The notes: generated by a model not told the origin, from the letters alone. Positions 9,037-52,564 are shown, counted from the stretch's first letter. The stretch is DNA of 64,000 bases from Oscillospiraceae bacterium (GCA_020024285.1 JAHHTZ010000008.1:281-64280); one strand, 5' to 3'. Numbers and translations are program-made.

Positions 9037-9154
9037 TTTTTCCCGAAGAAGCACGAGGCAAATACAGAGAACATTCCAGCCGAGCCCAAGATAACAACAG
9101 GGAAAGAAAAAATCCATGCAAAGTTTTGCATGGATTTTTCTGTACAGCAAACAA

Positions 9155-10456
9155 TTATTTGAGCCGAACCTCCACCACGGTATCGATCGGGTCGGGGAGG
9201 AGCGGGCTTGCCCCGAAGGACACGAACACGAGATCGCGGTAGTTGGAGGTGATCCATCCCTCGTCCACGCGCAGCTCGCTGCCGTCGCGCAGCAGGCGGA
9301 TGGATTCCACCTGCTCGCGGCGGATGCCCGGCAAATAAACATAGCCGATCTGCGGCTCCATCACATGGTAATAGAGGCGCTTTCCGTCGCGGGAGGCGGT
9401 GATCCTGCCGTATTCGGGCTTATCCAGCTCGGCGCAGCCGCAGCCGATGAGGGAAGCGCGGTTGCGGCTCATCCATCTGCCGACTTCGTGCAGGATGGCG
9501 CAGGATTCCTCCGGAATCTTTCCCCTTGCGTCCGGTCCCACATTGAGGATCATGTTTCCGCCCTTGCTGACGCATTCCACCAGCTTTTTGATGATCATGT
9601 CTGCCGGCTTATAGTTGTGGTCGGCGGCGCAGTAGCCCCAGTTGCCGTTCATGGTGACGCAGGCTTCCCACACGGCGCGTTCCCCGGTTTCGCCGAAGAT
9701 GCCCTTAGGCGGGATGAGCTGCTCGGGGCTGACAAAGTCGCCGCAGTAGTCGGTCGGATGCGCCGTCACAAGCGAGCCGAGTCCTTCTCCGCTGACCTCC
9801 AGACGGTTGTTGAGGATGATGTCCGGCTGATAGGTGCGCACCATTTCCACAAGCTCCTGTGCGCGCCAGGTGTCGCAGGTCATGTTGTCGTAGGAAAAAT
9901 CGAACCACATGATGTCGAGCTTTCCGTAGTTGGTGCACAGCTCCTTGATCTGCCCGTGCATATATTTGAGGTAGCGGTCGAAGCAGCGGTTTTCGTTGCT
10001 GTATTTGGGATCGAGGCGCATCGGGTGGATCTTGTCGCCGTAGTGGGGGTAATCGGGGTGATGCCAGTCGAGCAGGGAATAGTACAGCCCCACGCGGATG
10101 CCCTCTGCGCGGAACGCTTCGAGAAATTCCGCAACAAAATCGCGTCCGCAGCAGACCTTGGAGGAAAAGTCGGTGTATTTTGTATCGAACAGGCAGTAGC
10201 CGTCGTGGTGCTTTGCGGTGAGCACCGCGTACTGCATCCCGGCTTCCTTTGCTGATTTTGCCCAGGTTCGCATGTCGCAGCTGTCGGGCTGGAATTCGTA
10301 CTTGAGCGGCTCATAGTCTTCCAGCGGGATCTGTTCGATGGAGCGCACCCACTCTCCGCGTGCAGGAATGGCATACAGCCCCCAGTGGATAAACATGCCA
10401 AAACGGGCATTGGTAAACCATTGAACCCGTTTGTTGTAGATGTTGCGGTCAAACAT
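9155..10456 (-). CDS. alpha-L-fucosidase, GH29
   Basis: GH29 N-terminal signature RFGMFIHWGLYAIPA and HHDGYCLFDT. ATG at 10456 lies one codon inside the track start (TTG). Confidence 0.9.
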   Translation of the reverse strand: MFDRNIYNKRVQWFTNARFGMFIHWGLYAIPARGEWVRSIEQIPLEDYEPLKYEFQPDSCDMRTWAKSAKEAGMQYAVLTAKHHDGYCLFDTKYTDFSSKVCCGRDFVAEFLEAFRAEGIRVGLYYSLLDWHHPDYPHYGDKIHPMRLDPKYSNENRCFDRYLKYMHGQIKELCTNYGKLDIMWFDFSYDNMTCDTWRAQELVEMVRTYQPDIILNNRLEVSGEGLGSLVTAHPTDYCGDFVSPEQLIPPKGIFGETGERAVWEACVTMNGNWGYCAADHNYKPADMIIKKLVECVSKGGNMILNVGPDARGKIPEESCAILHEVGRWMSRNRASLIGCGCAELDKPEYGRITASRDGKRLYYHVMEPQIGYVYLPGIRREQVESIRLLRDGSELRVDEGWITSNYRDLVFVSFGASPLLPDPIDTVVEVRLK

Positions 10457-10804
10457 CAAATCAAACCTTTCCGAATAAAGTTGTGTCAGCTTGATTATAC
10501 AATAGAAGTGATCGCCAAAAAAGATGTTTTTGTGAAAAATTTTTTACCCTATAAAAAAATGCAGGATGGAGCCGCAAAACAGAAAAGGAAAAGGAAGGAT
10601 TTCCTGCAAAACGAAAAAAATTGTCATATTATCACAAATAGAGCAAGATTTTACTTTCATTTTACAGAGGAATGTGCTACAATGAAAGAGCTTGTACAGG
10701 CGGATTTTTCCGTTTCTGATGGGAGAGCAAGAGAAGATCCGACCGGGATATACCGACCTGTGTTTGTATAAAATAGCGTAAATTTATGCTTTGGAGGTAT
10801 TATC

Positions 10805-14168: not shown

Positions 14169-15458
14169 ATGAAGTTGGAATTAGGTAAAATCTTCATCAA
14201 GGATATCCAGTTTGGTGACAAAACATATGTCGAGAAAGGTGTTCTCTATGTAAACAAGGCAGAGGTAGAGGCTCTTGTACTGGAAGATGACAAACTTGCA
14301 GCGTGTCATCTTGAGATTGCAAGACCCGGCGAATCTGTTCGAATCACTCCGGTAAAAGACGTCATCGAACCACGCGTAAAGGTTTCCGGCGGCGGCGAAA
14401 TCTTCCCCGGCGTGATCGGCAAGGTAAGCCCGACCGTCGGCAGCGGCAGGACCCATGCGCTCGAAGGCTGCTGCGTTGTTACAGTTGGTAAGATCGTAGG
14501 CTTCCAAGAAGGCGTGATCGATATGAGCGGTCCGGCTGCAAAATACTGCCCCTTCTCCAAAACCTGCAACCTCTGCGTTGTGATGGAGCCAAACGGCGAG
14601 CTGGAAACACACGTTTATGAAAAAGCTGCAAGAATGGCAGGACTGAAGGTTGCGACCTATCTCGGTCAGGCTGCAAAAGAGCTGGAGCCCGACGAGATCC
14701 AGACCTTCGAAACAAAACCTGTATTCGAGCAGGCTGCCATGTACCCGAATCTTCCAAAAGTAGGTTATATCCACATGCTTCAGTCCCAGGGTCTGCTGCA
14801 TGATACTTATTACTACGGCGTGGATGCAAAACAGCTGGTTCCAACCATCATGTATCCAACCGAAATCATGGATGGCGCGATCGTATCCGGCAACTGCGTT
14901 GCTCCCTGTGACAAGGTAACCACCTTCCACCATCTGCACAATCCGGTAATTGAAGACTGCTTCAAGCATCACGGAAAGGATATCAACTTTATGGGCGTTA
15001 TCCTGACCAATGAGAACGTGTTCCTCGCAGACAAAGAGCGTCACTCCGATATGGTTGCAAAGCTCTGCCAGTGGATGCAGCTGGACGGCGTGCTCATCAC
15101 CGAGGAAGGCTACGGCAACCCGGATACCGACCTGATGATGAACTGCCACAAGGTAGAGCTTGCAGGCACAAAGGTTGTTCTCATCACCGATGAGTTCCCA
15201 GGCAAAGACGGAAAATCCCAGTCCCTGGCTGATACCTGCAAAGAGGCAGATGCACTTTCCTCCTGCGGACAGGGCAATGCGACCCTCCAGTTCCCTGCAA
15301 TGGATCATGTGATCGGTACACAGGATTACATCGAGATGCAGATCGGCGGCTGGGCAGGATGCGTAAATTCGGACGGCAGCTTTGAAGCAGAGCTGCAGAT
15401 CATCATTGCATCCACCATCGCAAATGGTTATAACCATCTTGCTGCAAGAGGTTACTAA
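14169..15458 (+). CDS. glycine/sarcosine/betaine reductase component B alpha/beta proprotein (GrdE/GrdG/GrdI family)
   Basis: N-terminus MKLELGKIFIKDIQFG.... 429 codons. Asn-Cys (SGN|CV) at residues 242/243, where GrdE proproteins self-cleave to form a pyruvoyl group. AAAGGAGG RBS. Confidence 0.85.
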   Translation: MKLELGKIFIKDIQFGDKTYVEKGVLYVNKAEVEALVLEDDKLAACHLEIARPGESVRITPVKDVIEPRVKVSGGGEIFPGVIGKVSPTVGSGRTHALEGCCVVTVGKIVGFQEGVIDMSGPAAKYCPFSKTCNLCVVMEPNGELETHVYEKAARMAGLKVATYLGQAAKELEPDEIQTFETKPVFEQAAMYPNLPKVGYIHMLQSQGLLHDTYYYGVDAKQLVPTIMYPTEIMDGAIVSGNCVAPCDKVTTFHHLHNPVIEDCFKHHGKDINFMGVILTNENVFLADKERHSDMVAKLCQWMQLDGVLITEEGYGNPDTDLMMNCHKVELAGTKVVLITDEFPGKDGKSQSLADTCKEADALSSCGQGNATLQFPAMDHVIGTQDYIEMQIGGWAGCVNSDGSFEAELQIIIASTIANGYNHLAARGY

Positions 15459-15478
15459 TTCAGGAAGGAGATATCATT

Positions 15479-16783
15479 ATGGCTAAATTTAGAGTAGTAC
15501 ATTATATGAATCAGTTCTTCGCTGGTTTGGGCGGTGAAGACAAAGCGGATCTTCGTCCTGAAATTCGAGAATCCGTGGTAGGTCCCGGCATGGCTTTGAA
15601 GGAAGCACTCGGAGAAAACTATGAAATCGTTGCAACCGTGATCTGCGGCGACAACTATTTCGGCGAAAACCTCGAAGAAGCAACCGACACCATTCTCAAA
15701 ATGGTGGAAAAATATAAACCGGACGTATTCGTAGCAGGTCCTGCATTCAACGCAGGTCGTTACGGTGTAGCTTGCGGAACCATCTGTAAAGCAGTGGAAG
15801 AACGCCTCGGCGTTCCAACCGTTACCGGTATGTACGTAGAGAATCCGGGCGTTGATATGTTCCGCAAGGACGTTATTATCGTAGAAACCGGAAACTCCGC
15901 TGCAAAAATGGGCACAGCAATGCCAAAGCTCAGCGCACTTGTTAAGAAGATGGCAAACAAGGAAGAAATCCTTGGTCCAAAAGAGGAAGGCTATCTCGAG
16001 CGCGGCATACGCGTAAACTACTTCGCAGAAAAACGCGGCTCTGAGCGTGCGGTTGAGATGCTCGTGAAAAAACTCAAAGGCGAAGCATTTGAAACCGATC
16101 TTCCGATGCCGGTATTCGACCGTGTTGATCCTGCCGAACCAATCAAAGATATCAAAAAAGCTAAAATCGCTGTGGTTACCTCCGGAGGTATCGTTCCGCA
16201 GGGCAACCCGGATCACATCGAATCCTCCAACGCAACCAAATGGGGCAAATACGACATCACCGGAATGGATCGCCTTTCCCCTGAGAAATTTACCACCATC
16301 CACGGCGGTTATGACAGACAGTTTGCAATGCAGAATCCAAACGTGGTAGTACCTCTGGATGCACTTCGCCAGCTGGAAAAAGAGGGCGAATTCGGTGAGC
16401 TGGTGAACTACTTCTGCGCTACCACTGGTACCGGTACTGCAACCGCATCGGCTGCAAAATTCGGCTCTGAAATCGGTAAAATGCTCCTCGACGAACACGT
16501 TGACGGCGTAATCCTGGTATCGACCTGAGGTACCTGCACACGTTGCGGCGCAACGATGGTAAAAGGTATTGAAAAATACGGTATCCCGGTTGTACATATG
16601 GCAACCGTTGTTCCGATCTCTCTGACGATCGGTGCAAACAGAATCATCCCAGGCGTTGGTATCCCATATCCAATCGGTGATCCAACTCAGGGCGAGGCAG
16701 ACAGCTACAAGATCCGTGTTAAAATGGTGAAGAAGGCTTTGCAGGCTCTTCAGACCCCAGTTACAGAACAAACCGTTTTCTAA
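15479..16783 (+). CDS. selenoprotein B of glycine-type reductase (GrdB/GrdF/GrdH family) with in-frame UGA (Sec)
   Basis: Track ORFs 15479..16528 and 16556..16783 share one frame and are separated only by the TGA at 16526..16528. Read-through gives ...VILVST-U-GTCTRCGATMVKGIEKYGIPVVHM, the UxxCxxC motif of selenoprotein B, for 434 codons in total. Confidence 0.85.
16526..16555 (+). other. UGA(Sec) codon plus candidate SECIS hairpin
   Basis: TGA at 16526, then hairpin cgttgc-ggc-gcaacg at 16541..16555, starting 12 nt after the UGA. That position is appropriate for a bacterial SECIS. Confidence 0.55.
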
Positions 16784-16809
16784 TCTAATACATCCCGAAC
16801 AAAACAAAG

Positions 16810-16851
16810 AGAATCCGCCGCAGTGCTGCATAGCACTGCGGCGGATTCTCT
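16810..16851 (+). terminator. strong hairpin terminator after the selenoprotein B gene
   Basis: Perfect 19-bp stem gagaatccgccgcagtgct / agcactgcggcggattctc with loop gcat. The T-tract is weak. Confidence 0.7.
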
Positions 16852-19341: not shown

Positions 19342-22300
19342 ATGAGATCATTTATTGCCTACTTGGTTGCGTTTTCTATGACGGCATCCATAGCAGCGCA
19401 AGCACTGACACCTGTGGTATCCGCCGCAGAACCTCCATCGTCCCAAACGGCTGTGGAGCAAAACGGGGAAACCGACCCTGCAAAGCAGGAAAACACCGAA
19501 GCATCCTCCAAAGAGGAACCAAAGGACCCTGCACCGCAGGAAAATCCACAAAACGACAAACAGGAACAAGCTCAGCCAAACGGTGAGGCATCCGCACCGG
19601 ACAGCCAAAATCCCGATGCGCAGGGCAACCCGGCACAGCCCGGCACCCCTTCTGAGGGCGGCACCCCGGATGCACAGCCCGGTACCCCTTCTGAGGGCAC
19701 TGCTCCGAATGCACAGCCCGGCACCCCGGCTGAAGGCACTGCTCCGGATACACAGTCCGGCACCCCTTCTGAAGGCACCGCTCCGAATGCACAGCCCGGT
19801 ACTCCTGCCGAGGGTGAAGCGGCACAGCCTGGCACCCCGATGATCCCGCTGACCCCCGCAGCCAAAATCCAGGAGCAGACCGCGGTGCTCCCAACGGTAA
19901 ACGGCGGCGCAGCAGTATCGATCCATGCTGCCGCACCGATCGCGAAGGACGTTTCCTTCACCGTTTCGGTTTCGGGCGAGAAGGAGGACTCCAAGCAAGT
20001 CACCCTCAAGGGAAACGCGGATGATTCGATGGTGCAGGCAAGGTTTCGGGACCTTCCCGACGGCAGCTATGAGGTGACGGTATCCGCACCCGGATTTGCC
20101 ACCTACACCCAGTCTGTCACCGTACAGAGCGGCATGCTCAGTGAGCTGACCCTCTATACCGCAGAGCTGCGCGGCTACAGCGAAGCTGCAGCACATCCCG
20201 GCGTTCTTCGCCTCGGTGACACAAACGGCGACGGGAAAGTGAGCAAACAGGACGTCGATACGATGCTCGAAGCCATGAAGAACGGCTCGGTCGGCGTCTG
20301 CGACCTCAACGGCGACGGGGAAGTGAACCTCATCGACCTTGAGTATCTCGCATCCAGCCTCACCGACCGCGGCGAGCAGAAAAAAGACATTCACTCCACC
20401 GTGCGCTCCCTGGCGATACAGGAGGCAGTAAAAGCCGAAGCACAGGCAAACGTGAGCGGCAACCTCGACGAGCTCCTCAACGGAAGCAAGGTATCCCTTG
20501 CGCCATCCAATGGGGACGTGAGCGACAGCAACCCGATCCGCGTCGATTTTCACTTTGCAGGCTCCACCAAGGAGGAGCTGCCGAAATTGGATGGGATGCT
20601 CGTGGAATCCCCAAATGAAAAGGGCATCGCAGCAGGCTCTGTCCTTGTCACCTACGTTGACGAAAACGGGCAGGAGCAGACGATGGAGCTTGCGATCCGC
20701 GACGAATCCGCAAGAATGATGACGATGAGCCTTGGTGGTTCCGTCACCCGCCTGAGTGATGGCAGCTTGCAGGTCAACTTCGGCAATCAGATCGCAGTGA
20801 AGAAGATCACTCTCACGATCACAGACACACAGAGCAATAACTTAGCTGAAATTTCCAAAGTGGAATTTGTAAACGGGATGGAAAATCGCATTCCTGCCCC
20901 GGAGATGGACATCCCGCAGGGACTGTCTGCAAAGGCAGGCGACAAACGCCTGACCCTCAGCTGGAATCCATCCACCAACGTGACCGCATACGAGCTGGAA
21001 ATCACAGGTCCTGCAAAGAACGGCAGCGACAACGAAGTCATGACCCTTCGCACCACTGCGACCCAGATCCAGATCAGCTCCATCAACAACAAAAAGCTCA
21101 TCAACAATCGGGAATATACCATCAAGATCCAGTCCCTCAACGGCAGCTGGAAGAGCGGATGGAGCGACCCGATCACCGCAGTACCGAAGGTGAGCGGCAA
21201 GCCGGAGAAGCCGGACAACGTGGAGGCAGTGGGCGGCTATCGCTCCATTGAGGTGAGCTGGAAAAACATGGACGATACCGACAGCTACACCGTACTGTAT
21301 CAGCCCGCGGACGGCAGCGAGCCATACAAGCAGGCAGTTACAAAGCTCGAACGCAACCGCTATAAAATCGAAGGTCTGACGGACAACACCGAATACCGCG
21401 TTGTGGTATACGGCACCAACGACCTCGGCGACGGTCCGCAGAGCACACCGGCACTTGCCACCACAAGAAGCCTTGTGGATGCATGGATGCCTTCTTACCG
21501 ACTCATCAATACACCAAACGGAAAAGGTCAGCTGACAGCACACATCAAAAATGCTCAGAAGCTGCGCGGCTCCAGTGCGAAAATGATGGGCAGCACTCTG
21601 GACAAGGAGGACTCCGACACCGCACTCGGTGTATTGGACAGCGACCAGAGCTCCTACTACTATGTTGCAGACTGGGATGACGGTGTTCACTACGGCAACG
21701 GCGGCAGCGAGGTCAAGACAGACCGCGGTATCCGCGTGACCTTCGATCAGGAATTCGAGTTTGGCGCAATCGCATTTGCCGAACCGGAAAACGGCGCCAT
21801 CAATCAGGTGCGCGTCAACTATCTGGACAAATCGAGCGGCGAAATGAAGCCGATCAAAAACATCCGCCTCAGCGTCAAGATGGACAAAAACAACCGCAGA
21901 CACTTCTATGCTGCGTTTGATGAGAAAATCGTGACCGATCAGCTTCAGCTGTGCACCGCAACCGGAAACACAAACAGCATCAAGATCGCGGAGCTTCGCT
22001 TCTATGGCTACGACAGCCTCTACAGCGACATCATGAACCTCTATGAGGATGTATACCACACCGAGCTCAAGCCGGAAGTGGACGAAGCGAAAATCAACGA
22101 GCTGCAAACCCGACTCAATACTCCGGAGCAGGCAAGCGGCGAATGCCACCCGGAACAGGAGATCCTCCAGCGTGAAATCGATACTGCGCGCAAGATTCTC
22201 GGCAGCCAGAACCTCAACCGCGTCATCGATGTAAAACCTTCCCTCAGCGCGACAGCGAAGGGACGCAGCGACAGTAAGCTCGGCTTCACCGGGCTCAACG

Positions 22301-24960
22301 ACTGGCAGCCGCTGGGCGTAACGGTTGGGGCAGGCGAGAGCTTCACCGTCTATGTCGGTCATCCGAACAAGCGTGTGGGCGACCGCACCGACCTCAAAAT
22401 CGTATTCACCCAGTACAATGCAGAATCCGGCAAATTCATGCAGGAAACAAATTACCTCAAAATCGGTGAAAACGTGATGACCGCTCCTGCCATCGTCAGC
22501 AAGGACTTTGAGCGCGGCGGCTCGGTTTACATCCGCTACACCGGCAGCAATCAAAACGATCAGTACGGGGTGCGTGTCGACGGCGGCACGAAGATCCCAA
22601 TGCTCGACCTGTATCAGGTGACCGATGAGGCAGAGCGCCTCAAACGCACCAAGGAATACGTGGAAGAGCTGGAAGCCTACGTTGCAAACCTCTCTGCACA
22701 GCATGACCTCCTGCATCAGGGCAGCGAGAACGCAAACATCAACAAACCGTACAAAGAGGAGGAATGCATCCTCGGTGCCACCGAGCTGCTCACCGACCGC
22801 ATGCTCTTCTCCGTTTCTGCAAAACGGATGCTCGCAGGACTCGGCGGCGGCAGCGCGGACGACAAGGCAAGAAAGCTCAACGATTCCATGCAGGCGATGG
22901 ACGACATGATGGTGCTCTTCTACCAGCATAAGGGTCTTACCGACGGTGCTTCGAACGCCATCGATCAGACTCCGTCCCAGCACCTCAACATCCGCTATAT
23001 GCGTATGTTTGCAGGCGCATTCATGTATGCATCCGGCAACCACATCGGCATCGGCTGGGGCTCTGTTCCCGGAATGGCAGGCGGTGTTCCCGTCAAAGCG
23101 GACGCTAAGGGCAAATATCAGTCCGGCAATCTGTTCGGCTGGGGCATCGGCCACGAGATCGGTCACGACATCAACCAAGGCAGCTATGTCATCGCCGAAG
23201 TGACCAACAACTACTTTGCACAGCTTGCCAACTACAAGAACGGTCCAGCCCGCTTCACCTATGACAAGGTGTACGACAAGGTGACCTCCAATACCGTGGG
23301 CAGGGACGAAAACCTCTTCACCCAGCTTGCAATGTTCTGGCAGCTGCGCCTTGCATACGACAACTACTATCCATACAAAACATTCGATACAGAACGCGAA
23401 GTATTCGATAATCTCTTCTTTGCCCGCGTGGATACCTTCTCAAGAACGCCTTCCCGCGCAACCGAGGGATTGGCTGATCCGAAACCGCTCAAGCTCACCG
23501 GCGATGCAGAGCAGAACTTCATCCGTCTGAGCTCTGCTGCGGCACAGAAGGACCTGAGCGAATTCTTCACCCGCTGGGGCTGGATTCCAACCGAGGAAAC
23601 AAAAGCCTTCATCGGTCAGTGGCCAAAGGAAACACGCGCCATCTTCTACGGCAACGATGCCGTACAGTCCTACCGCATCGAAAACCCGAACGGAGCGACC
23701 TTTGAAAATAAAATCGTCCTCCATGCATCCGAGGTCACCCTCACACAGGGCAACGATGCAAACGGTCTTGAACAGAATCAGGTGAAGCTCGATATTCGCC
23801 CATCCTCTGCTGATTCCATGCTCTTTGGCTATGAAATCAGCCGCACCACCATTTCCGGCGGTGCAGAGCACACCGAGGCAGTCGGCTTTGTACCGGCATC
23901 CTCCGACGGCAGCGCATCCTTTACGGATACGGTGACCACCATCAACAACCGCACCTTTACCTACCAGATCACACCGATCGACCAGTACCTTGTCAGAGCA
24001 AATTCCGCTCAGATGAAGCAGATCAAGATCGCGCACGACGGCAGCCACGACAAGAGCGGCTGGACTTTGAGCACCAACATGGTTTCCGATCAGGATACCG
24101 CAGAAAACCACGATGACGAGAACCCGGATTCCGGCATGGATCAAAATGCAGGAAACGGCGGGAAGAAGTCTGCAATCGGACTTGCTGCTGACAACCGACT
24201 CGACACCACCTACAACGGAACTGCGGCAGGCGGCGATGCTCAGATCGAAGTGCAGTTTAACCGTCCGCTCAATGTGACAGGCTTTAAGCTCAGCACCGCA
24301 CAGAGCGGTCTGACCGTGGAGGCAGAGCTTCTCGAAAACGGGAAATGGACCGCAGTTTCCCTCAGCGCATCTAATGCAGGGAACAACGAGGTCGTATACT
24401 TTACGAACGACGAAGGCTGGATTCGCACCGGCAATTCGACCGCGCTGCGCCTGACCTTCAAGGGCGCACAGAGCGTGAGCCTCAGTGAGCTGAGTGTGCT
24501 CGGTCCGACCGGCGACAACGTAGAGCATATGAGGGACGGCATCGGCATCCTCAAGGCAGACTACGTCTACGACAAGGAGCTTTACAGCACAAGCGGACAG
24601 AAGGACGGCTTCATCCCGAAGGATTCCGTCGTATTTATGGGGACATACAAGGGCAACCCCGCTTACAACGCCGTGATCCTCTACGATGAAAACGGAAAGA
24701 TCGTGGGTGCAAACGGAACCTCCGAACAGATCATCCTTGCTCCCGTACCGGACAAGGGCGACCTGGGCACCACCTCCGACGGACGCTGGGTATACTGGAT
24801 CGCGAAGGATGCCCCAAGACCGAAGCGCGTGCGCGCAGAGCTTTACCGCGTTGACGATGCCCTCACAAACAAAGGACAGCGCCATGTCAGCGATACCGAA
24901 TGGGCAGAGGTTCCGGGAACACTTCCGGAACTCACCATCGCTTCCGACTCTCAAAACTAA
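19342..24960 (+). CDS. giant secreted multidomain protein: Pro-rich repeats, dockerin, 2x FN3, M60-like (enhancin-like) zinc metallopeptidase, discoidin/CBM-like C-terminal modules
   Basis: Signal peptide MRSFIAYLVAFSMTASIAAQA. Dockerin repeats DTNGDGKVSKQD and DLNGDGEVNLID. FN3-like segments (LTLSWNPSTNVTAYELEI, IEVSWKNMDDTDSYTVLY). HEIGH at nt 23152..23166 followed by AEVTNNYF, as in M60-like gluzincins. Confidence 0.85.
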   Translation: MRSFIAYLVAFSMTASIAAQALTPVVSAAEPPSSQTAVEQNGETDPAKQENTEASSKEEPKDPAPQENPQNDKQEQAQPNGEASAPDSQNPDAQGNPAQPGTPSEGGTPDAQPGTPSEGTAPNAQPGTPAEGTAPDTQSGTPSEGTAPNAQPGTPAEGEAAQPGTPMIPLTPAAKIQEQTAVLPTVNGGAAVSIHAAAPIAKDVSFTVSVSGEKEDSKQVTLKGNADDSMVQARFRDLPDGSYEVTVSAPGFATYTQSVTVQSGMLSELTLYTAELRGYSEAAAHPGVLRLGDTNGDGKVSKQDVDTMLEAMKNGSVGVCDLNGDGEVNLIDLEYLASSLTDRGEQKKDIHSTVRSLAIQEAVKAEAQANVSGNLDELLNGSKVSLAPSNGDVSDSNPIRVDFHFAGSTKEELPKLDGMLVESPNEKGIAAGSVLVTYVDENGQEQTMELAIRDESARMMTMSLGGSVTRLSDGSLQVNFGNQIAVKKITLTITDTQSNNLAEISKVEFVNGMENRIPAPEMDIPQGLSAKAGDKRLTLSWNPSTNVTAYELEITGPAKNGSDNEVMTLRTTATQIQISSINNKKLINNREYTIKIQSLNGSWKSGWSDPITAVPKVSGKPEKPDNVEAVGGYRSIEVSWKNMDDTDSYTVLYQPADGSEPYKQAVTKLERNRYKIEGLTDNTEYRVVVYGTNDLGDGPQSTPALATTRSLVDAWMPSYRLINTPNGKGQLTAHIKNAQKLRGSSAKMMGSTLDKEDSDTALGVLDSDQSSYYYVADWDDGVHYGNGGSEVKTDRGIRVTFDQEFEFGAIAFAEPENGAINQVRVNYLDKSSGEMKPIKNIRLSVKMDKNNRRHFYAAFDEKIVTDQLQLCTATGNTNSIKIAELRFYGYDSLYSDIMNLYEDVYHTELKPEVDEAKINELQTRLNTPEQASGECHPEQEILQREIDTARKILGSQNLNRVIDVKPSLSATAKGRSDSKLGFTGLNDWQPLGVTVGAGESFTVYVGHPNKRVGDRTDLKIVFTQYNAESGKFMQETNYLKIGENVMTAPAIVSKDFERGGSVYIRYTGSNQNDQYGVRVDGGTKIPMLDLYQVTDEAERLKRTKEYVEELEAYVANLSAQHDLLHQGSENANINKPYKEEECILGATELLTDRMLFSVSAKRMLAGLGGGSADDKARKLNDSMQAMDDMMVLFYQHKGLTDGASNAIDQTPSQHLNIRYMRMFAGAFMYASGNHIGIGWGSVPGMAGGVPVKADAKGKYQSGNLFGWGIGHEIGHDINQGSYVIAEVTNNYFAQLANYKNGPARFTYDKVYDKVTSNTVGRDENLFTQLAMFWQLRLAYDNYYPYKTFDTEREVFDNLFFARVDTFSRTPSRATEGLADPKPLKLTGDAEQNFIRLSSAAAQKDLSEFFTRWGWIPTEETKAFIGQWPKETRAIFYGNDAVQSYRIENPNGATFENKIVLHASEVTLTQGNDANGLEQNQVKLDIRPSSADSMLFGYEISRTTISGGAEHTEAVGFVPASSDGSASFTDTVTTINNRTFTYQITPIDQYLVRANSAQMKQIKIAHDGSHDKSGWTLSTNMVSDQDTAENHDDENPDSGMDQNAGNGGKKSAIGLAADNRLDTTYNGTAAGGDAQIEVQFNRPLNVTGFKLSTAQSGLTVEAELLENGKWTAVSLSASNAGNNEVVYFTNDEGWIRTGNSTALRLTFKGAQSVSLSELSVLGPTGDNVEHMRDGIGILKADYVYDKELYSTSGQKDGFIPKDSVVFMGTYKGNPAYNAVILYDENGKIVGANGTSEQIILAPVPDKGDLGTTSDGRWVYWIAKDAPRPKRVRAELYRVDDALTNKGQRHVSDTEWAEVPGTLPELTIASDSQN
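19633..19848 (+). repeat. 39-bp in-frame tandem repeat (AQPGTPSEGTAPN-type linker)
   Basis: gcacagccc recurs at 19633, 19672, 19711, (19750, variant), 19789 and 19822. Confidence 0.85.
20203..20365 (+). other. type I dockerin module inside the M60-like protein
   Basis: Two Ca-binding loops matching DxNxDGxxxxxD, spaced about 30 aa apart (GDTNGDGKVSKQDVDTML ... CDLNGDGEVNLIDLEYL). Confidence 0.8.
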
Positions 24961-24990
24961 TGCCCGAACCGATTGCAAAAGGAGAGAACC

Positions 24991-26442
24991 ATGAAGAAAC
25001 AAATCAAAAGCTTGATCGTTGCCGCGGTGATGGCATTCGTCCTGCCCTTGCAGGCGTTTGCCGTGTCCACGGATGCAGCGGCGAGCTTTCAGGAGAATGG
25101 CAATCAGGCAAACGTGTCTGTTACGCTCCAGCATCCCGATGCCGGAGCGGGCGTGACCGCTCTTGAGATGACATTCCATCTCGAAGCGATGGCAGGCTCT
25201 TTGAATCAGGCACAGCTGAGCTTCGATTTTAACGAATCACTCCCCGGAACGGTCAAGGAACACCGCTTCAATCCACAGGACAACACCCTCAAGGTGTATG
25301 TTGCAGGTGCCGAGGACGGCATCTTCCGCAATGACACCGTGAACCTTGGCACCATCAGGCTCGAAAGCAGCAGCGGCGAGCGCATTCAGCTCAAGGTCGT
25401 GACCGGAACCACCGCACCCGATGCACAGCTGAGCGACGACCTCAAGCTGCTCACCGGAGGGACCACGATGCGCTCGATGGCGATGGAGGAAAGCTCGGCT
25501 CTCCTCAACGCCGAGGGCAGCAGCCAGACCCCCGACCGTCCGTCCCGTCCATCCCGTCCGAACGACCGCGACGACGATGACGATGATGACGACGACCTCC
25601 GCCCATCCAGACCGAGCCGCCCCAATAAGCCATCGAAAAACGACAAGCCGCAGGATATAGAGGAAGCTGTAAAGCCAACGACCCCACCTCCTGCGTCCCA
25701 GCAGCCAAGCGCCCCGACAAACAGCGCAAATGCAGCAGGCAGCTCTGCCGCTTTTGCAGACAATGTGTACAGCGAAGCACAGCTCAAAGATGAATTTGCA
25801 AAGGGCGATGTTGTGGAGCTTGATGTGACACAGCGCACAAAGCTCAGTGACAAAGCGTTTGAAATGCTCAAAGAGAAGAAGGGTTCGCTCCTCAAGCTCG
25901 TGGGCAGGGACTACACCTGGATCTTTGATTCCAAGGAAATCAAAAATCCTTCCGTTGCAGGCGGGATCTTTGACAGCGCAGTATCCTTCACCGTCAGCGC
26001 GGAGCTTGACGCAGCCATCCAAACATTTGCAGGGGATGTGCCGTATCTCGTCTTTGAAACCGCATACAGCGGCGAGCTTCCGGGCAAGACAGTCCTCCGG
26101 CTCCAGCTCGACAAGGATACCTATGCAGGCAAGACCCTCTACGTCTACCATCAGCCGCAGCCGGGAGAGCCGACCGAGATCGCACAGGTGACGGCAGACG
26201 AAAACGGCATTGTCGAGATTTCGATGGAGCATTGCTCCGTATACTTCCTCACCACGGAACAGATCAAAGCCGGGGAAGAGGATTCCAAAGAAACAGCACA
26301 GCCAATCGAACCGTCCGAGCCGGCGCAGACCCCTGCGCAGGAGGAGGGCGTTTCGATGGGGCTTGTCCTCACCATCGTGGCAGCTATTCTGATCATTGCC
26401 GCAGGTGCCGGAATCTACTTCTATCGAAACAAGAAAGCATAA
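24991..26442 (+). CDS. membrane-anchored surface protein with N-terminal cohesin-like domain
   Basis: AAAGGAGAG RBS and a signal peptide. N-terminal beta-rich domain of about 140 aa with a cohesin-like pattern (ANVSVTLQHPDAGAGVTALEMTFHLE...LGTIRLES). PSRPSRP-D9-PSRPSRP linker. C-terminal TM anchor (LVLTIVAAILIIAAGAGIYFY) followed by RNKKA. Confidence 0.6.
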   Translation: MKKQIKSLIVAAVMAFVLPLQAFAVSTDAAASFQENGNQANVSVTLQHPDAGAGVTALEMTFHLEAMAGSLNQAQLSFDFNESLPGTVKEHRFNPQDNTLKVYVAGAEDGIFRNDTVNLGTIRLESSSGERIQLKVVTGTTAPDAQLSDDLKLLTGGTTMRSMAMEESSALLNAEGSSQTPDRPSRPSRPNDRDDDDDDDDDLRPSRPSRPNKPSKNDKPQDIEEAVKPTTPPPASQQPSAPTNSANAAGSSAAFADNVYSEAQLKDEFAKGDVVELDVTQRTKLSDKAFEMLKEKKGSLLKLVGRDYTWIFDSKEIKNPSVAGGIFDSAVSFTVSAELDAAIQTFAGDVPYLVFETAYSGELPGKTVLRLQLDKDTYAGKTLYVYHQPQPGEPTEIAQVTADENGIVEISMEHCSVYFLTTEQIKAGEEDSKETAQPIEPSEPAQTPAQEEGVSMGLVLTIVAAILIIAAGAGIYFYRNKKA

Positions 26443-26450
26443 TCAAAAAA

Positions 26451-26484
26451 GGCATTTTGCGTGGCGCGCAAAATGCCTTTTTTT
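26451..26484 (+). terminator. rho-independent terminator
   Basis: Hairpin ggcattttgcg / cgcaaaatgcc followed by a T7 run. Confidence 0.75.
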
Positions 26485-26613
26485 ATGAAAAATATCGCAG
26501 GATCGGGAAAAGGATATTGAAAATTAAAAAAATAATCAGTATAATGAGAAAAAATGCTCGAAGGGAGCACAGCCCGCAAAGGCTTCAGATGACGCAGAAA
26601 AAGGAGAGATATT

Positions 26614-35683: not shown

Positions 35684-35825
35684 AAAAAAACTCCTCTCAT
35701 TGATGGATGGGGACGACCCCAACCCATTATACGGCATTCTATGAGAAAAACAAGATGGTAAAAAGCAAAAACGGATGGGGGAATCCCCATCCGTTTTGCA
35801 TCAGCGCGTCAGAAAACGGGGTCTG

Positions 35826-36833
35826 TTATTTTTCCTTCGGAGCATCCTGCTTCGGTTCGCTCGGCGCACCGGCGGGCGGATTCTTCTTTGGAGCAGGGGG
35901 AAGCTTCGCTTTTTTGCGGCGCAGCTTGCGGATCAGCAGGACAATCAGGACGATCACAACTGCAACGATCAGCAGGATCGGGCTGTCTGCAATCAGGAAG
36001 ATCAAAAATTCCTCCGCAAAGATGCGGATGCGGTAGAGAGAATCCCGGAAGCCGGAGGAAATGCGCTCGCCGAATGTTTCGGAGCTGACGTCGCTCATCC
36101 TCTTTACCTCATGGACGCTGAGGGTGACAGTGCTGTAATCGATGAGATCGTCGTAGCGGCGCAGGGTGGAGGCATAGCCATCGAGCTGGTAATGCAGCTC
36201 GGACAGGCGCGCTTCCAGCTGGATGATATCTTCAAGCCGGGTCGCCTGCTTGAGCAGCTCGAGGAGCTTTTGCTCTTCAAGCTCGAGGGTTTGCTTGCGC
36301 GCCTCGTTGTCGGCGTAATCGAGGGTGATGTTTTCGCTCCATTTGCTGGTGTCTGTCACATTGCCGATGGTGCCGACCTGATTGAGGAACGCGTCAAGAT
36401 TTTTTGTCGGGATGCGCACGGTGTAGCTGCCGCCGCGCGCCATGTTCTGACCATTGAGTCGCTTGCCGCCGTAGGTTTCGGAGCTTTCGATAAAGCCCTC
36501 ATATTCCTTGACGGATTCGTTCATCTTTTCGATGAGCTCGTCGTAGTTGAGGGTTTCGACACTGACGCTGGCGCGCCAGATGAGCTTGATGTTTTTTTCC
36601 TGCATCGGCTCCATCGGTGCGGCGGAATCGATGCCCATGCCGCGATCCCCGTCGGGGGTGCCTTCACCCGGCGGCGCAGCCGGTGCAGCGGAATCCATCA
36701 TCGACTCGCTGCTTTCCGGCATTGCCTCATTTTTGCTCATGTCCATGCCCGACGATGCGCCGCAGGCACTGAGCATCAGGCACAGCGCAAGGGTAAGGGC
36801 GGCAAGAGAAGAAGTAAACGACCGTTTCATCAT
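35826..36833 (-). CDS. DUF4349-domain lipoprotein
   Basis: Lipobox (LMLSAC), a central coiled-coil, and a C-terminal TM helix plus basic tail. AAGGAGG RBS. Family name is from memory. Confidence 0.75.
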   Translation of the reverse strand: MMKRSFTSSLAALTLALCLMLSACGASSGMDMSKNEAMPESSESMMDSAAPAAPPGEGTPDGDRGMGIDSAAPMEPMQEKNIKLIWRASVSVETLNYDELIEKMNESVKEYEGFIESSETYGGKRLNGQNMARGGSYTVRIPTKNLDAFLNQVGTIGNVTDTSKWSENITLDYADNEARKQTLELEEQKLLELLKQATRLEDIIQLEARLSELHYQLDGYASTLRRYDDLIDYSTVTLSVHEVKRMSDVSSETFGERISSGFRDSLYRIRIFAEEFLIFLIADSPILLIVAVVIVLIVLLIRKLRRKKAKLPPAPKKNPPAGAPSEPKQDAPKEK

Positions 36834-37096
36834 AGAACCTCCTTATCAACCGTTTGTTTTTTGCGGGAGCGTCCTGCAAAGGGGCGCTCCGGCGGGATTT
36901 TCGGTACTGATTTCACTTTAATAGTATCATATCGGGGAGATATTACTTCACAAAAAGAAAATAATTGGAGGATGATACAAAAGTTTTCGGAAAATTTATA
37001 CATTACAAATCAAAAAGTCCGGCAGCAATCTACACAAAAGGGAAATAATAGTGTATTATTTAAAAGCAGAAAAAACGTGCGAAGGAGGAAGCGTCC

Positions 37097-38572
37097 ATGA
37101 GAGCAAGCGGAATTTTAATGCACATCAGCAGTCTGCCCCAGTCCTGCGGGATCGGCACCCTCGGGCGGGAAGCGTACCGCTTTGTGGATTTTTTGCAGCA
37201 GTCCCACCAGAAATATTGGCAGGTGCTGCCGCTGTGTCCGACGGAGGAAGGGGATTCGCCCTATCAGTCGAGCTGTGTGTTCGCCGGAAACCCCTATTTC
37301 ATCGACCTTGACTTTTTGCAGAAGGAAGGGCTTTTGCTCAAGGAGGAAATCGAGGGGAGCTGGGGGGACGATGCGCAGCAGGTGGATTTTGAGCTGCTGC
37401 GCCGGAGAAGGCTCCCCGTGCTGTATCGGGCATATCAGCGCTTTCGCCCGAACGCAGGATACCGCCGCTTTTGCCGCCTGAATGAAGGCTGGCTTTGCGA
37501 CTACGCCCTCTTCTGCGCCCTGCGCGAGCAGTACGGCGCCCCGTGGACCGCATGGAGCGAGCCGCTTCGCACACGCGATAAAAAGGCGCTCAAACAGGCA
37601 TCGGAGGAGCTTGTTTTACACATCGATTTTTATAAATTTTTGCAGTTTAAGTTCTATGAGCAGTGGGGCTATCTCAAGCGGTATGCCAACCGCCACGGCA
37701 TCAAAATCATCGGGGATCTGCCCATCTATGTGGCGGCGGACAGCTGCGACGTCTGGGCAAATCAGGAGCTGTTTTGGCTCGATTCGGACGGCTGCCCCAC
37801 CGCTGTGGCAGGCTGTCCGCCCGATGCGTTTTCGGCTGAGGGGCAGCTGTGGAACAATCCGCTCTACCGCTGGGACCGCATGAAGCGATCGGGCTATCGC
37901 TTTTGGGTGGAGCGGGTGCGTCAGGCGCAGACGCTCTTCGATGTCATCCGCATCGACCACTTCCGCGGACTGGAGAGCTATTATTCCATCCCGGCAGGCG
38001 ATCCCACCGCCGAGCACGGACACTGGGAAAAGGGTCCCGGTGTGCGCCTGTTCCGCGCCATCGAGCGCAAACTCGGCAGGGTGGAGTTTTTGGCGGAGGA
38101 CCTCGGGATGCTCACCCCGCAGGTGCACGAGCTGAGAGAGCGGCTTAAAATGCCGGGGATGCGCATCTTGCAGTTTGCCTTTTCGCTCGATGAGGAGAGC
38201 ACCTACCTTCCGCACAACTGCATCGAAAATACCGTAGTATATACAGGAACACACGACAATAACACGGCGCTTGGCTGGTTTGACAGCCTGAGCGCGCCGG
38301 AGCAGCAGTTTGTCCTGCGCTATATCCGTGCGAAAGACCGCAGCGAACTGAGCTGGGCACTCATCGGGGCGGCATGGGGCAGCACGGCACAGCTTGCCGT
38401 TGCGCAGATGCAGGATGTGCTCGACCTTGGGGCGCAGGCGCGGATGAATACCCCTGCCACCGTGGGTCAAAACTGGAAATGGCGGATGCTGCCGGGGGCG
38501 GCAGATTGTTCGCTTGCCCATCGGCTTGCAGAGCTTACCGATCTGTATTTTCGCAGCAGGAACGAGAGATAG
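37097..38572 (+). CDS. malQ: 4-alpha-glucanotransferase (amylomaltase, GH77)
   Basis: N-terminus RASGILMHISSLP. Also DLPIYVA.DS.DVW and IRIDHFRG motifs. Confidence 0.92.
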   Translation: MRASGILMHISSLPQSCGIGTLGREAYRFVDFLQQSHQKYWQVLPLCPTEEGDSPYQSSCVFAGNPYFIDLDFLQKEGLLLKEEIEGSWGDDAQQVDFELLRRRRLPVLYRAYQRFRPNAGYRRFCRLNEGWLCDYALFCALREQYGAPWTAWSEPLRTRDKKALKQASEELVLHIDFYKFLQFKFYEQWGYLKRYANRHGIKIIGDLPIYVAADSCDVWANQELFWLDSDGCPTAVAGCPPDAFSAEGQLWNNPLYRWDRMKRSGYRFWVERVRQAQTLFDVIRIDHFRGLESYYSIPAGDPTAEHGHWEKGPGVRLFRAIERKLGRVEFLAEDLGMLTPQVHELRERLKMPGMRILQFAFSLDEESTYLPHNCIENTVVYTGTHDNNTALGWFDSLSAPEQQFVLRYIRAKDRSELSWALIGAAWGSTAQLAVAQMQDVLDLGAQARMNTPATVGQNWKWRMLPGAADCSLAHRLAELTDLYFRSRNER

Positions 38573-43222: not shown

Positions 43223-43265
43223 GCATTAGGATGTAATGACAACAGATAAAGATGGAATTGTTAAA

Positions 43266-52525: not shown

Positions 52526-52531
52526 CAAAAC

Positions 52532-52564
52532 AGAAGGCAGCACGGGTTCTCCGTGCTGCCTTCT
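52532..52564. terminator. bidirectional terminator
   Basis: Hairpin agaaggcagcacgg-gttct-ccgtgctgccttct. Confidence 0.7.

What the first reader, a model, noticed from the sequence alone, without database searches (positions are those of the whole stretch)
19342..26442. Two-gene surface module: dockerin-bearing M60-like metalloprotease next to a membrane-anchored cohesin-like protein
The ~1870-aa secreted protein combines a clear type I dockerin, two FN3 domains, an M60-like (enhancin-type) gluzincin core (HEIGH...E) and C-terminal carbohydrate-binding-like modules. M60-like peptidases are associated with mucin and glycoprotein degradation in host-associated bacteria. The next gene starts 31 nt downstream. 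It encodes a protein with a cohesin-like N-terminal beta-domain, a striking PSRPSRP-D9-PSRPSRP linker and a C-terminal TM anchor. Together they look like a minimal self-contained cohesin-dockerin system tethering a glycoprotease, rather than a cellulase, to the cell surface. With the GH29 fucosidase nearby, this points to host-glycan foraging.
Basis: partly seen in the sequence, partly recalled or inferred. Interest (0 to 1): 0.68.

Follow-up and report, generated by a model that had tools for sequence, protein, structure and literature searches.

The report
Glycoprotease with its own surface anchor
A gut Clostridia bacterium pairs a giant secreted mucin-type protease carrying a dockerin "plug" with a neighbouring membrane protein whose outer domain has the fold of the matching cohesin "socket". 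The same pair recurs in many gut bacterial species, but the socket is too divergent for standard annotation to recognise.

Summary
ORF1 (19342-24960, 1872 aa) has a signal peptide, a type I dockerin, two FN3 domains and an M60-like catalytic core (HEIGH...E) related to solved C. perfringens Zmp O-glycopeptidases. ORF2 (24991-26442, 483 aa) starts 30 nt downstream behind a strong RBS and is followed by a hairpin terminator.

ORF2's N-domain matches no cohesin profile and no PDB sequence. A high-confidence AlphaFold model (pLDDT 94) finds cohesins as its best structural matches, led by the non-cellulosomal C. perfringens cohesins (Foldseek TM 0.55-0.61).

The pair is a fixed module:
- In 84 of 85 loci from Oscillospiraceae, Lachnospiraceae and Gordonibacter, a member of this family lies directly downstream of the M60 gene.
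- 85 of 86 M60 orthologues keep the dockerin.
- The partner's anchor is interchangeable: TM helix, LPXTG plus an adjacent sortase, or its own dockerin.
- Two genomes fuse the two proteins.

Actual cohesin-dockerin binding was not tested, and a mirror-tree co-evolution test gave no signal. The proposed GH29 link is not supported.

Verdict: a surface-tethering cohesin-dockerin-type module dedicated to one glycoprotease. It is a new variant of a known kind, unannotated and apparently undescribed.

The parts
19342..24960 (+). ORF1: 1872-aa secreted multidomain M60-like (ZmpB-type) glycoprotease with an internal dockerin
   Evidence: ORF. Pfam domains. PDB sequence hits to C. perfringens Zmp O-glycopeptidases. 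Full-length orthologues at 40-62% identity among 278 reference-genome matches.
19342..19425 (+). Signal peptide of ORF1 (aa 1 to about 28)
   Evidence: Hydrophobic N-terminus MRSFIAYLVAFSMTASIAAQALTPVVSA, read from the sequence and conserved in orthologues. The cleavage site is inferred.
19633..19814 (+). 39-nt x 4.7 tandem repeat encoding the Pro/Gly/Thr-rich N-terminal linker (AQPGTPSEGTAPN repeats)
   Evidence: Tandem Repeats Finder.
19909..20187 (+). Ig-like beta-sandwich (CarboxypepD_reg/PEGA-like) preceding the dockerin
   Evidence: Pfam PF13620 (1.3e-06) and PEGA (2.9e-04), partial matches at aa 234-267. The domain boundaries are inferred.
20203..20367 (+). Type I dockerin (aa 288-342): two Ca-loop repeats, DTNGDGKVSKQD and DLNGDGEVNLID, each followed by a helix
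   Evidence: PF00404 25.9 bits against a cut-off of 22.9. Ca-ligand positions are invariant in 5 orthologues. A dockerin HMM hits 85 of 86 orthologues.
20914..21465 (+). Two FN3 domains (aa ~525-708)
   Evidence: PF00041, 2 stretches, E 6e-18.
21967..22677 (+). Region homologous to the pre-catalytic part of C. perfringens ZmpB (aa 876-1112)
   Evidence: phmmer against PDB, 7jfs_A residues 397-623, E 1.2e-20.
23110..24006 (+). M60-like catalytic domain and following domain (aa 1257-1555). HEIGH is at 23152-23166 and the third zinc ligand E1286 at 23197-23199.
   Evidence: PF13402 43.2 bits against a cut-off of 25.8. 5kdj/5kdn/6xsx/6xsz matches. The motif is invariant in orthologues.
24181..24390 (+). 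Weak F5/8 type C (CBM32-like) module
   Evidence: PF00754 E 0.2, below the cut-off in the window. Recorded on orthologues.
24978..24986 (+). Shine-Dalgarno AAAGGAGAG for ORF2
   Evidence: Read from the sequence.
24991..26442 (+). ORF2: 483-aa type I membrane protein made of signal peptide, cohesin-like domain, acidic/Pro-rich stalk, extra beta-domain and C-terminal TM anchor
   Evidence: ORF. Alignment with homologues. Directly downstream of M60 in 84 of 85 loci.
25063..25518 (+). Cohesin-like N-terminal domain (aa 25-176)
   Evidence: AF2 pLDDT 94.1, pTM 0.88. Foldseek top hits are cohesins: 2vo8, 2jh2, 2w1n, 4dh2, 2ccl, 1ohz, 1aoh. No Pfam or PDB sequence match. 166 relatives in the exhaustive HMMER search.
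25519..25755 (+). Low-complexity stalk (PSRPSRP-D9-PSRPSRP, then Pro/Ser/Ala-rich)
   Evidence: Sequence. pLDDT below 50. Replaced by PT- or PEATQK-type repeats in orthologues.
25756..26262 (+). Extra C-terminal domain (aa 256-424), function unknown, restricted to the window's clade
   Evidence: A local HMM finds it only in the window protein and the L001/L002/L014 and L004/L009 partners. Only a weak fold resemblance to glycosidase 'domain C', from a low-confidence model.
26350..26424 (+). C-terminal transmembrane anchor (aa ~454-478) followed by RNKKA
   Evidence: Hydropathy scan. Predicted helix 456-482.
26445..26483 (.). 17-bp perfect hairpin flanked by A- and T-runs: bidirectional intrinsic terminator closing the two-gene unit
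   Evidence: Terminator scan and sequence. An 11/12 promoter for the next gene lies at 26517-26545.

Best explanation
This is a bicistronic surface-display operon. ORF1 is a secreted, roughly 200-kDa M60-like (ZmpB-type) O-glycoprotease with an internal type I dockerin near its N-terminus. ORF2 is a type I membrane protein that presents a very divergent cohesin-fold domain at the end of a long disordered stalk.

Proposed mechanism: both proteins are exported by Sec. ORF2 stays anchored by its C-terminal helix and its stalk spans the cell wall. The cohesin-like domain then binds the Ca2+-loaded dockerin of ORF1 and holds the glycoprotease on the cell surface, so peptides and glycans released from host or dietary O-glycoproteins stay close to the cell.

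Shown here:
- the domain content of ORF1;
- the cohesin-like fold of ORF2;
- the operon structure;
- strict co-conservation of the dockerin and the cohesin-like gene;
- interchangeable anchors on the partner.

Inferred, not shown:
- the physical cohesin-dockerin contact and its Ca2+ dependence;
- the substrate (O-glycoproteins such as mucin).
For: 1. Dockerin. It passes the Pfam cut-off, has two canonical Ca-loop plus helix repeats, and its Ca-ligand positions are invariant. It is present in 85 of 86 orthologues.
2. Fold of the ORF2 N-domain. The model has pLDDT 94. 19 of the top 22 Foldseek PDB hits are cohesins at probability 1.00, and the best are the C. perfringens cohesins of host-glycan hydrolases. 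An independent shallow-alignment model also ranks cohesins first.
3. Synteny. In 84 of 85 loci the family member is the next gene downstream on the same strand. In L049, the exception, the M60 ORF runs to the end of the retrieved locus. Flanking genes differ between lineages. Every informative look-up of family members, including the most divergent, was M60-adjacent.
4. Anchors. The cohesin-like domain is constant while the anchor is swapped: TM helix (most), LPXTG plus an adjacent sortase gene (L086), or a canonical C-terminal dockerin (L069, L078, L084). This is the architecture of anchoring and adaptor scaffoldins.
5. Fusions. Two genomes carry in-frame M60/cohesin-like fusions with no signal-peptide remnant.
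6. Conservation. The most conserved strands are beta5 and beta6, which belong to the dockerin-binding sheet in canonical cohesins (textbook knowledge; equivalence of strand numbering is assumed).
7. Operon. Strong RBS, terminator and a separate downstream promoter.
8. Window content. It holds exactly one dockerin and one cohesin-like ORF.
Against: - No sequence-level homology to cohesins, from Pfam on the window protein, from 93 relatives scanned, or from a family profile against all PDB sequences.
- Foldseek TM scores of 0.55-0.61 and rmsd of about 4.6 A indicate fold-level similarity only. They fall below the 0.65 TM-align threshold used for cohesin calling in PMC13463774.
- The model has 11 strands, against 9 in a classical cohesin.
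- Mirror-tree test: the dockerin tracks the cohesin-like domain no better than other ORF1 regions (partial r 0.19, controls 0.03-0.34).
- No complex model or binding data.
- The dockerin is internal and N-proximal, which is unusual.
- In the fused variants the dockerin and the cohesin-like domain are on one chain, so tethering cannot be the whole story there.
Confidence: 0.62

Rival explanations
1. ORF2 is a dedicated partner of the M60 protein, but it contacts a part of ORF1 other than the dockerin, or it binds the substrate (a CBM- or adhesin-like role for the beta-sandwich). The dockerin would then serve another purpose, such as Ca2+-dependent structural stabilisation or self-association.
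For: - The partnership is proven by synteny and fusions, but the interface is not.
- The mirror-tree test shows no special dockerin/cohesin-like coupling. FN3 and C-terminal regions correlate at least as well.
- Beta-jelly-roll folds similar to cohesins also occur in carbohydrate-binding modules. CBM3 is used as a look-alike negative control in PMC13463774.
- TM scores are moderate.
Against: - Cohesins dominate the Foldseek ranking, and the non-cohesin hits have a much lower TM (0.30-0.37).
- Both a dockerin and a cohesin-fold domain are conserved in every complete module examined.
- No CBM or adhesin family is detected in the domain.
Confidence: 0.2
2. The dockerin of ORF1 plugs into a different scaffoldin encoded elsewhere in the genome. 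ORF2 would be a separate co-transcribed surface protein.
For: - Only 64 kb of the genome is visible.
- In L069, L078 and L084 the partner itself ends in a canonical dockerin, so those genomes must hold other cohesins.
- Many gut Clostridia genomes contain both Coh and Doc modules (PMC12997984).
Against: - The adjacency holds in 84 of 85 loci across two Clostridia families plus Gordonibacter, despite variable flanks.
- There are gene fusions.
- The cohesin-like family was found only next to M60 genes wherever context was available.
- No other dockerin or cohesin-like ORF occurs in the window, and only one of 85 loci has a second dockerin ORF in its flanks.
Confidence: 0.1
3. ORF2 is a membrane-tethered regulator of the protease, acting as an inhibitor, a maturation factor or a self-protection factor rather than a passive anchor.
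For: - A dedicated one-to-one partner gene next to a large secreted protease would also fit an inhibitor or chaperone pairing (inference).
- The cohesin-like domain is the fastest-evolving part of the module (mean p-distance 0.71 against 0.37 for the catalytic domain).
Against: - Replacement of the TM helix by LPXTG/sortase or by a dockerin points to an anchoring role, not a regulatory one.
- No similarity to known protease inhibitors or pro-domains was found.
Confidence: 0.05

Closest known systems
Single-cohesin anchoring proteins OlpA/OlpC of Clostridium (Acetivibrio) thermocellum (PDB 3ul4, 4dh2)
   Same: One cohesin on a cell-surface anchoring protein tethers an individual dockerin-bearing enzyme directly to the cell, with no multi-enzyme scaffold. 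Both structures are among the Foldseek hits.
   Different: - OlpA and OlpC are recognisable type I cohesins anchored by SLH modules, and they accept many cellulosomal dockerins.
- Here the cohesin-like domain is invisible to sequence profiles.
- The anchor is a TM helix, or in some species LPXTG or a dockerin.
- The gene is hard-wired next to one client, an M60 glycoprotease with an internal rather than C-terminal dockerin.
Clostridium perfringens non-cellulosomal cohesin (X82)-dockerin complexes between host-glycan hydrolases (PDB 2vo8, 2jh2, 2w1n; Adams et al. 2008 as cited in PMC12997984)
   Same: - Best structural matches of the ORF2 domain.
- Cohesin-dockerin pairing is used by enzymes that attack animal glycoconjugates.
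- The ORF1 catalytic domain is closest to C. perfringens ZmpA, ZmpB and ZmpC.
   Different: - In C. perfringens the cohesins sit on the glycoside hydrolases themselves and mediate enzyme-enzyme pairing.
- Here the cohesin-like domain is on a non-catalytic membrane anchor, and the client is a peptidase.
Mucinolysome of Limousia (PMC12997984, 2026)
   Same: A cellulosome-type cohesin-dockerin system carries mucin-targeting enzymes, including dockerin-bearing peptidases, and is anchored to the cell by a single-cohesin anchoring scaffoldin.
   Different: - Limousia has 3-6 scaffoldins with up to 12 Pfam-detectable cohesins and dozens of dockerin enzymes.
- This module is one enzyme plus one anchor, with a cohesin that Pfam cannot see.
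- It sits in different families (Oscillospiraceae, Lachnospiraceae).
- M60 is not mentioned in that paper.
Sequence-invisible cohesin families and TM-anchored single-cohesin scaffoldins in Ruminococcus (PMC13463774, 2026)
   Same: Cohesins detectable only by predicted structure, some on proteins anchored by a C-terminal TM helix.
   Different: - Those belong to multi-component cellulosome or amylosome systems in Ruminococcus.
- They were called at TM-align >=0.65.
- No dedicated peptidase operon is described.
M60-like/PF13402 O-glycopeptidases (Nakjang et al. 2012, PMC3267712; ZmpA/B/C structures 5kdj, 6xsx, 6xsz)
   Same: - HEXXH...E gluzincin core with accessory FN3 and CBM32-like modules.
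- Association with host-adapted microbes.
   Different: - Dockerin_1 was listed on only 2 M60-like proteins in 2012, without comment.
- No adjacent cohesin partner was described.

Membership tests
Type I dockerin (PF00404) | Profile match above the curated threshold | tested here: met
   25.9 bits against a cut-off of 22.9, aa 291-338. Also listed (faint) for the identical protein in the public collection.
Type I dockerin (PF00404) | Two tandem ~22-residue segments, each an EF-hand-like Ca2+ loop (D-x-[DN]-x-[DN]-G-x-hydrophobic-x3-D) followed by a helix | tested here: met
   DTNGDGKVSKQD at aa 293-304 and DLNGDGEVNLID at aa 321-332. D293, N295, D297, G298, D304, D321, N323, D325, G326 and D332 are invariant in 5 orthologues. 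Present in 85 of 86 orthologues.
Type I dockerin (PF00404) | Ca2+-dependent binding to a cohesin | not testable with these tools
   No complex prediction or binding assay was available.
Cohesin (PF00963; types I-III) | Sequence-profile similarity to known cohesins | tested here: not met
   No Pfam Cohesin hit for ORF2 at E<=1. None among the 25 families shown for 93 relatives. The family profile hits no PDB sequence. Public names never say cohesin.
Cohesin (PF00963; types I-III) | About 140-150-residue flattened beta-sandwich (jelly-roll) whose closest structural neighbours are cohesins | tested here: met
   Model pLDDT 94.1, all-beta. Foldseek: 19 of the top 22 PDB hits are cohesins, probability 1.00, E down to 1.5e-5. 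Repeated with a second model.
Cohesin (PF00963; types I-III) | TM-align score >=0.65 to a reference cohesin (criterion of PMC13463774), with a CBM3 negative control | tested here: inconclusive
   Foldseek TM is 0.55-0.61 for the best cohesins.
Cohesin (PF00963; types I-III) | Binds a dockerin | not testable with these tools
   Only indirect support: co-conservation with a dockerin in 84-85 of 85-86 modules. The mirror-tree test was null.
Anchoring scaffoldin (functional class) | Non-catalytic secreted protein combining cohesin(s) with a cell-surface anchoring device | tested here: met
   Signal peptide, cohesin-like domain, stalk and TM helix. Orthologues use LPXTG plus sortase or a C-terminal dockerin. 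No catalytic domain detected.
M60-like peptidase (PF13402) | Profile match above threshold and an intact HEXXH...E zinc site | tested here: met
   43.2 bits against a cut-off of 25.8. HEIGH at 1271-1275 plus E1286, invariant in orthologues. Homology to solved ZmpA, ZmpB, ZmpC and BcM60C O-glycopeptidases.
M60-like peptidase (PF13402) | O-glycoprotein (mucin-type) peptidase activity | not testable with these tools
   Inferred only from homology to characterised Zmp enzymes.
Cellulosome/mucinolysome sensu stricto | Scaffoldin with multiple cohesins assembling multiple dockerin-bearing enzymes | tested here: not met
   One cohesin-like domain and one dockerin in the 64 kb window. Most partners have a single copy, and two have two copies. 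The rest of the genome was not visible.

The most novel reading that the evidence does not exclude
The ORF2 N-domain founds a previously unrecognised, extremely divergent cohesin family with a single dedicated client. Together with the internal dockerin of a giant M60 O-glycoprotease it forms a hard-wired two-gene 'mini-mucinolysome'. The M60 protein matches at least 278 reference genomes, and the partner gene follows it in all 80 retrieved loci that extend past the M60 gene. The organisms are gut Oscillospiraceae and Lachnospiraceae, including genomes labelled Gemmiger, Fournierella, Faecalibacterium, Roseburia and Dorea, plus Gordonibacter (probably by transfer). If so, many abundant commensals not regarded as mucin specialists would display a mucin-type protease on their surface, and cohesin-dockerin biology would extend well beyond what sequence profiles detect.
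Probability: 0.5. Interest if true: 0.72.

Novelty: new variant of a known kind. Interest (0 to 1): 0.6.

Why it matters
Cohesin-dockerin pairing is the classic way anaerobes build surface enzyme machines. It was extended to mucin degradation only in 2026, and in a single genus. This module would show a much simpler and far more widespread form: one glycoprotease and one dedicated anchor, conserved across many gut Clostridia species and annotated everywhere as 'hypothetical'.

If binding is confirmed, it would do three things:
- add a new cohesin family that profile HMMs miss;
- identify a conserved, surface-displayed O-glycoprotease in abundant commensals, which bears on mucus turnover and host-microbe contact;
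- provide a compact orthogonal cohesin-dockerin pair for protein-display engineering.

If binding is refuted, the strict M60/partner coupling would still need an explanation.

Tried and rejected
- **Word-indexed homologue searches with sub-domain queries.** The N-domain alignment and the C-domain returned nothing, not even the query's own protein. I treat these as uninformative, not negative. The exhaustive HMMER search replaced the first.
- **DNA-pattern seeding with the cohesin-like alignments.** It failed because no stretch is conserved enough. I seeded with the M60 protein instead.
- **Full-length AF2 model of ORF2 with a shallow alignment.** It was poor (pLDDT 53). I re-did the N-domain with a 71-sequence alignment.
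- **Large multi-repeat relatives (P0013, P0017, P0075, P0096) as possible multi-cohesin scaffoldins.** Rejected. They are cadherin-like/RTX or otherwise unrelated proteins that match only part of the profile.
- **Mirror-tree and partial-correlation co-evolution test, dockerin against cohesin-like domain.** No specific signal.
- **Natural 'knock-outs' (M60 orthologues without a dockerin or without a partner).** None found among 85 loci. The only exceptions are a truncated ORF (L050) and a locus that ends at the M60 gene (L049).
- **The GH29/fucosidase 'host-glycan foraging' link.** Rejected as a linkage argument (and the flanks).
- **Literature searches for M60 plus dockerin or cohesin.** No description of this module.

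Full report
**1. What is in the window**

Two co-directional ORFs occupy 19342-26442.

ORF1 has 1872 aa counted from the ATG at 19342. Orthologue N-termini support that start. In order, its parts are:
- a signal-peptide-like N-terminus;
- a Pro/Gly/Thr-rich linker encoded by a 39-nt x 4.7 tandem repeat;
- an Ig-like module;
- a type I dockerin: PF00404, 25.9 bits against a cut-off of 22.9, aa 291-338;
- two FN3 domains (E 6e-18);
- a Peptidase_M60 domain: 43.2 bits against a cut-off of 25.8.

The zinc motif is HEIGH at aa 1271-1275 with E1286. By sequence, the nearest solved structures are the *Clostridium perfringens* O-glycopeptidases ZmpB, ZmpA and ZmpC and BcM60C. The proposed C-terminal carbohydrate-binding module is only a sub-threshold F5/8-type-C hit here, although that family is recorded on orthologues.

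ORF2 (483 aa) starts 30 nt after the ORF1 stop, behind an AAAGGAGAG Shine-Dalgarno. A 17-bp perfect hairpin terminator follows it at 26445-26483. A separate 11/12 promoter for the next gene lies at 26517-26545. The pair is therefore a self-contained bicistronic unit.

ORF2 consists of:
- a signal peptide;
- an N-terminal domain (aa 25-176);
- the PSRPSRP-D9-PSRPSRP low-complexity stalk;
- a C-terminal TM helix.

**2. Is the ORF2 N-domain cohesin-like?**

By sequence, no:
- Pfam and NCBIfam give nothing.
- phmmer against the PDB gives nothing relevant.
- A 71-sequence family profile hits no solved structure.
- Of 93 relatives scanned, none matched Pfam Cohesin among the 25 families listed.

By structure, yes at fold level:
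- An exhaustive HMMER search found 166 relatives, which gave a deep alignment.
- With that alignment AlphaFold2 produced a very confident model: pLDDT 94.1, pTM 0.88, all-beta.
- Foldseek against the PDB returned cohesins for 19 of the top 22 hits at probability 1.00.
- The best hits are the non-cellulosomal *C. perfringens* cohesins of the GH33 and GH84C host-glycan hydrolases (2vo8, 2jh2, 2w1n; E about 1.5e-5, TM 0.55-0.61).
- These are followed by type I and II cohesins, including the single-cohesin anchors OlpC and OlpA.
- Non-cohesin hits (DsbD-alpha, AvmM, adhesins) have a much lower TM (0.30-0.37).
- An independent, poorer full-length model also ranked cohesins first.

Caveats:
- TM 0.55-0.61 is below the 0.65 TM-align cut-off used in a recent structure-based cohesin census (PMC13463774).
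- The model has 11 strands rather than 9.

**3. Comparative genomics**

Seeding with the M60 protein recovered full-length orthologues (40-62% identity) from 278 reference genomes. I analysed the best 80 loci. They come from:
- Oscillospiraceae: Gemmiger, Allofournierella/Fournierella, Pseudoflavonifractor, Subdoligranulum, Ruthenibacterium and a MAG labelled Faecalibacterium;
- many Lachnospiraceae: Acetatifactor, Roseburia, Dorea, Kineothrix and *E. plexicaudatum* ASF492;
- two Gordonibacter genomes (Actinobacteria).

Results from these 80 plus the five loci fetched earlier, 85 in all:
- In 84 of 85 loci a member of the cohesin-like family is the next gene downstream on the same strand. In L049, the exception, the M60 ORF runs to the end of the retrieved locus.
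- A dockerin HMM built from the module hits 85 of 86 M60 orthologues, always at the same N-proximal position. The exception is a truncated ORF.
- Flanking genes differ between lineages, so the pair travels as a unit.
- Every family member for which context could be retrieved sits behind an M60 gene. That includes the most divergent ones at 27-32% identity.
- All 135 family domain sequences BLAST to an M60-adjacent partner.

The family therefore appears dedicated to this one client.

**4. What the partner's architecture says**

The N-terminal cohesin-like domain is constant, and what follows it varies:
- Most partners have a low-complexity stalk and a C-terminal TM helix, sometimes with a long Lys/Arg tail.
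- In L086 the partner has two cohesin-like domains and an LPXTG motif, and a sortase gene follows it directly.
- In L069, L078 and L084 the anchor is replaced by the partner's own canonical C-terminal dockerin, which is the layout of an adaptor scaffoldin.
- A few partners end in FN3-like or Big_2-like domains.
- In L069 and L078 the cohesin-like domain is fused in frame to the C-terminus of the M60 protein, with no signal-peptide remnant. This is a Rosetta-stone fusion.

A constant receptor-like head on interchangeable anchoring devices is what anchoring scaffoldins look like. Within the domain, the most conserved strands are beta5 (V.EYRY) and beta6 (L.IY.AG). In canonical cohesins these strands belong to the dockerin-binding sheet. 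That statement comes from textbook knowledge and assumes the strand numbering is equivalent.

**5. What could not be shown**

- A mirror-tree test on 82 pairs gave r(Doc,Coh) = 0.73 and a partial r of 0.19. That is no higher than for control regions of ORF1 (0.03-0.34), so there is no specific co-evolution signal.
- All complete modules keep both elements, so there is no natural loss experiment.
- The physical dockerin/cohesin-like contact remains an inference from fold, architecture and co-conservation. I put it at about 0.6.

**6. The GH29 argument**

A GH29 alpha-L-fucosidase exists at 9155-10459 on the minus strand (PF01120, 3e-82). It is about 9 kb away. Between it and the module lie TetR, a Na+ symporter, glycine-reductase genes and a chemoreceptor. 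No fucosidase appears in the flanks of the module in any locus whose genes were listed. It adds nothing to the interpretation.

**7. Relation to what is known**

- Cohesin-dockerin use outside cellulosomes is established. It is experimentally shown for the *C. perfringens* host-glycan hydrolase complexes and for the *R. bromii* amylosome (as cited in PMC12997984).
- A 'mucinolysome' with dockerin-bearing glycosidases and peptidases was described in Limousia in 2026 (PMC12997984).
- Sequence-invisible cohesin families and TM-anchored single-cohesin scaffoldins were reported in Ruminococcus in 2026 (PMC13463774).
- The founding M60-like paper listed Dockerin_1 on two proteins, without comment (PMC3267712).
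- I found no paper describing an M60-dockerin gene with an adjacent cohesin-like anchor.
- Public records name the partners 'hypothetical', 'FIVAR domain-containing' or 'Fibronectin type-III domain-containing'.

The closest functional analogue is the OlpA/OlpC type of single-cohesin anchor. The differences are a profile-invisible cohesin family, a one-to-one hard-wired client, an internal dockerin, and a peptidase rather than a glycosidase as cargo.

**8. Verdict**

I classify the module as a new variant of a known kind. The mechanism type is familiar, but the cohesin family, its dedication to a single giant glycoprotease and its breadth across abundant gut commensals appear undescribed. Interest is 0.6.

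Noticed in passing
window 15479-16780 (+), in-frame TGA at 16526-16528: The glycine/sarcosine/betaine reductase GrdB ORF (PF07355, 2e-173) stops at a TGA. The reading frame then continues as ...VST*GTCTRCGATMV..., which is the classic selenocysteine UxxCxxC context. This is almost certainly a Sec-encoding UGA and not a real stop.
   Followed up: partly
L069:9827-16156 and L078:288-6344 (rabbit-gut Lachnospiraceae MAGs): Genuine in-frame fusions: M60 protein, cohesin-like domain, PT-type linker, then a canonical C-terminal dockerin. There is no signal-peptide remnant at the junction. One chain therefore carries an internal dockerin, a cohesin-like domain and a second dockerin, which could allow self-association or daisy-chaining.
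   Followed up: partly
L086:10001-12905: This partner has two cohesin-like domains and an LPXTG motif. A 181-aa sortase gene follows immediately, so this is a three-gene version of the module with covalent wall anchoring.
   Followed up: partly
L041 and L066 (Gordonibacter, Actinobacteria): The complete M60-dockerin plus cohesin-like module occurs in two Gordonibacter genomes at about 40% identity to the Clostridia versions. This suggests horizontal transfer between gut phyla.
   Followed up: no
L021, L023, L024, L030, L040, L067, L077 partners (C-termini): In one Lachnospiraceae clade the partner's TM helix is followed by a 30-40-residue tail that is almost pure Lys/Arg (for example GKRKRKKKRRRARRKPPERKKRRRPVRRL). 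The same clade has a longer insert between the two dockerin repeats. The function of the tail is unknown.
   Followed up: no
window 25756-26262 (+), ORF2 aa 256-424: An extra folded domain lies between the stalk and the TM helix. It is found only in the window's clade (with L001/L002/L014 and L004/L009). It has no Pfam family, and a low-confidence model gives only a weak resemblance to the small beta-sandwich 'domain C' of glycosidases.
   Followed up: partly
window 44720-47362 (-): An 880-aa ORF with Cadherin and Y_Y_Y domain hits, so another large putative surface protein in the window. It has no dockerin or cohesin-like match.
   Followed up: no
window 57332-58006 (+): A SUKH-4 immunity-protein family ORF (PF14435, 2e-09). 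This hints at a polymorphic-toxin/immunity locus nearby.
   Followed up: no
window 9116-10255, 15455-16831, 35775-37100, 43236-44255, 52408-53583: Long ORFs with no family hit lie antisense to the real genes (GH29, GrdB, DUF4349, PTS EIIC, thioredoxin-reductase-like). They are shadow ORFs typical of this GC content, which is a caution for ORF-based reading of this window.
   Followed up: yes
tool behaviour: the search for homologous proteins returned no hits at all, not even the source protein, when queried with isolated domains (the N-domain alignment and the C-domain). Negative results from that tool for sub-domain queries should not be trusted.
   Followed up: partly
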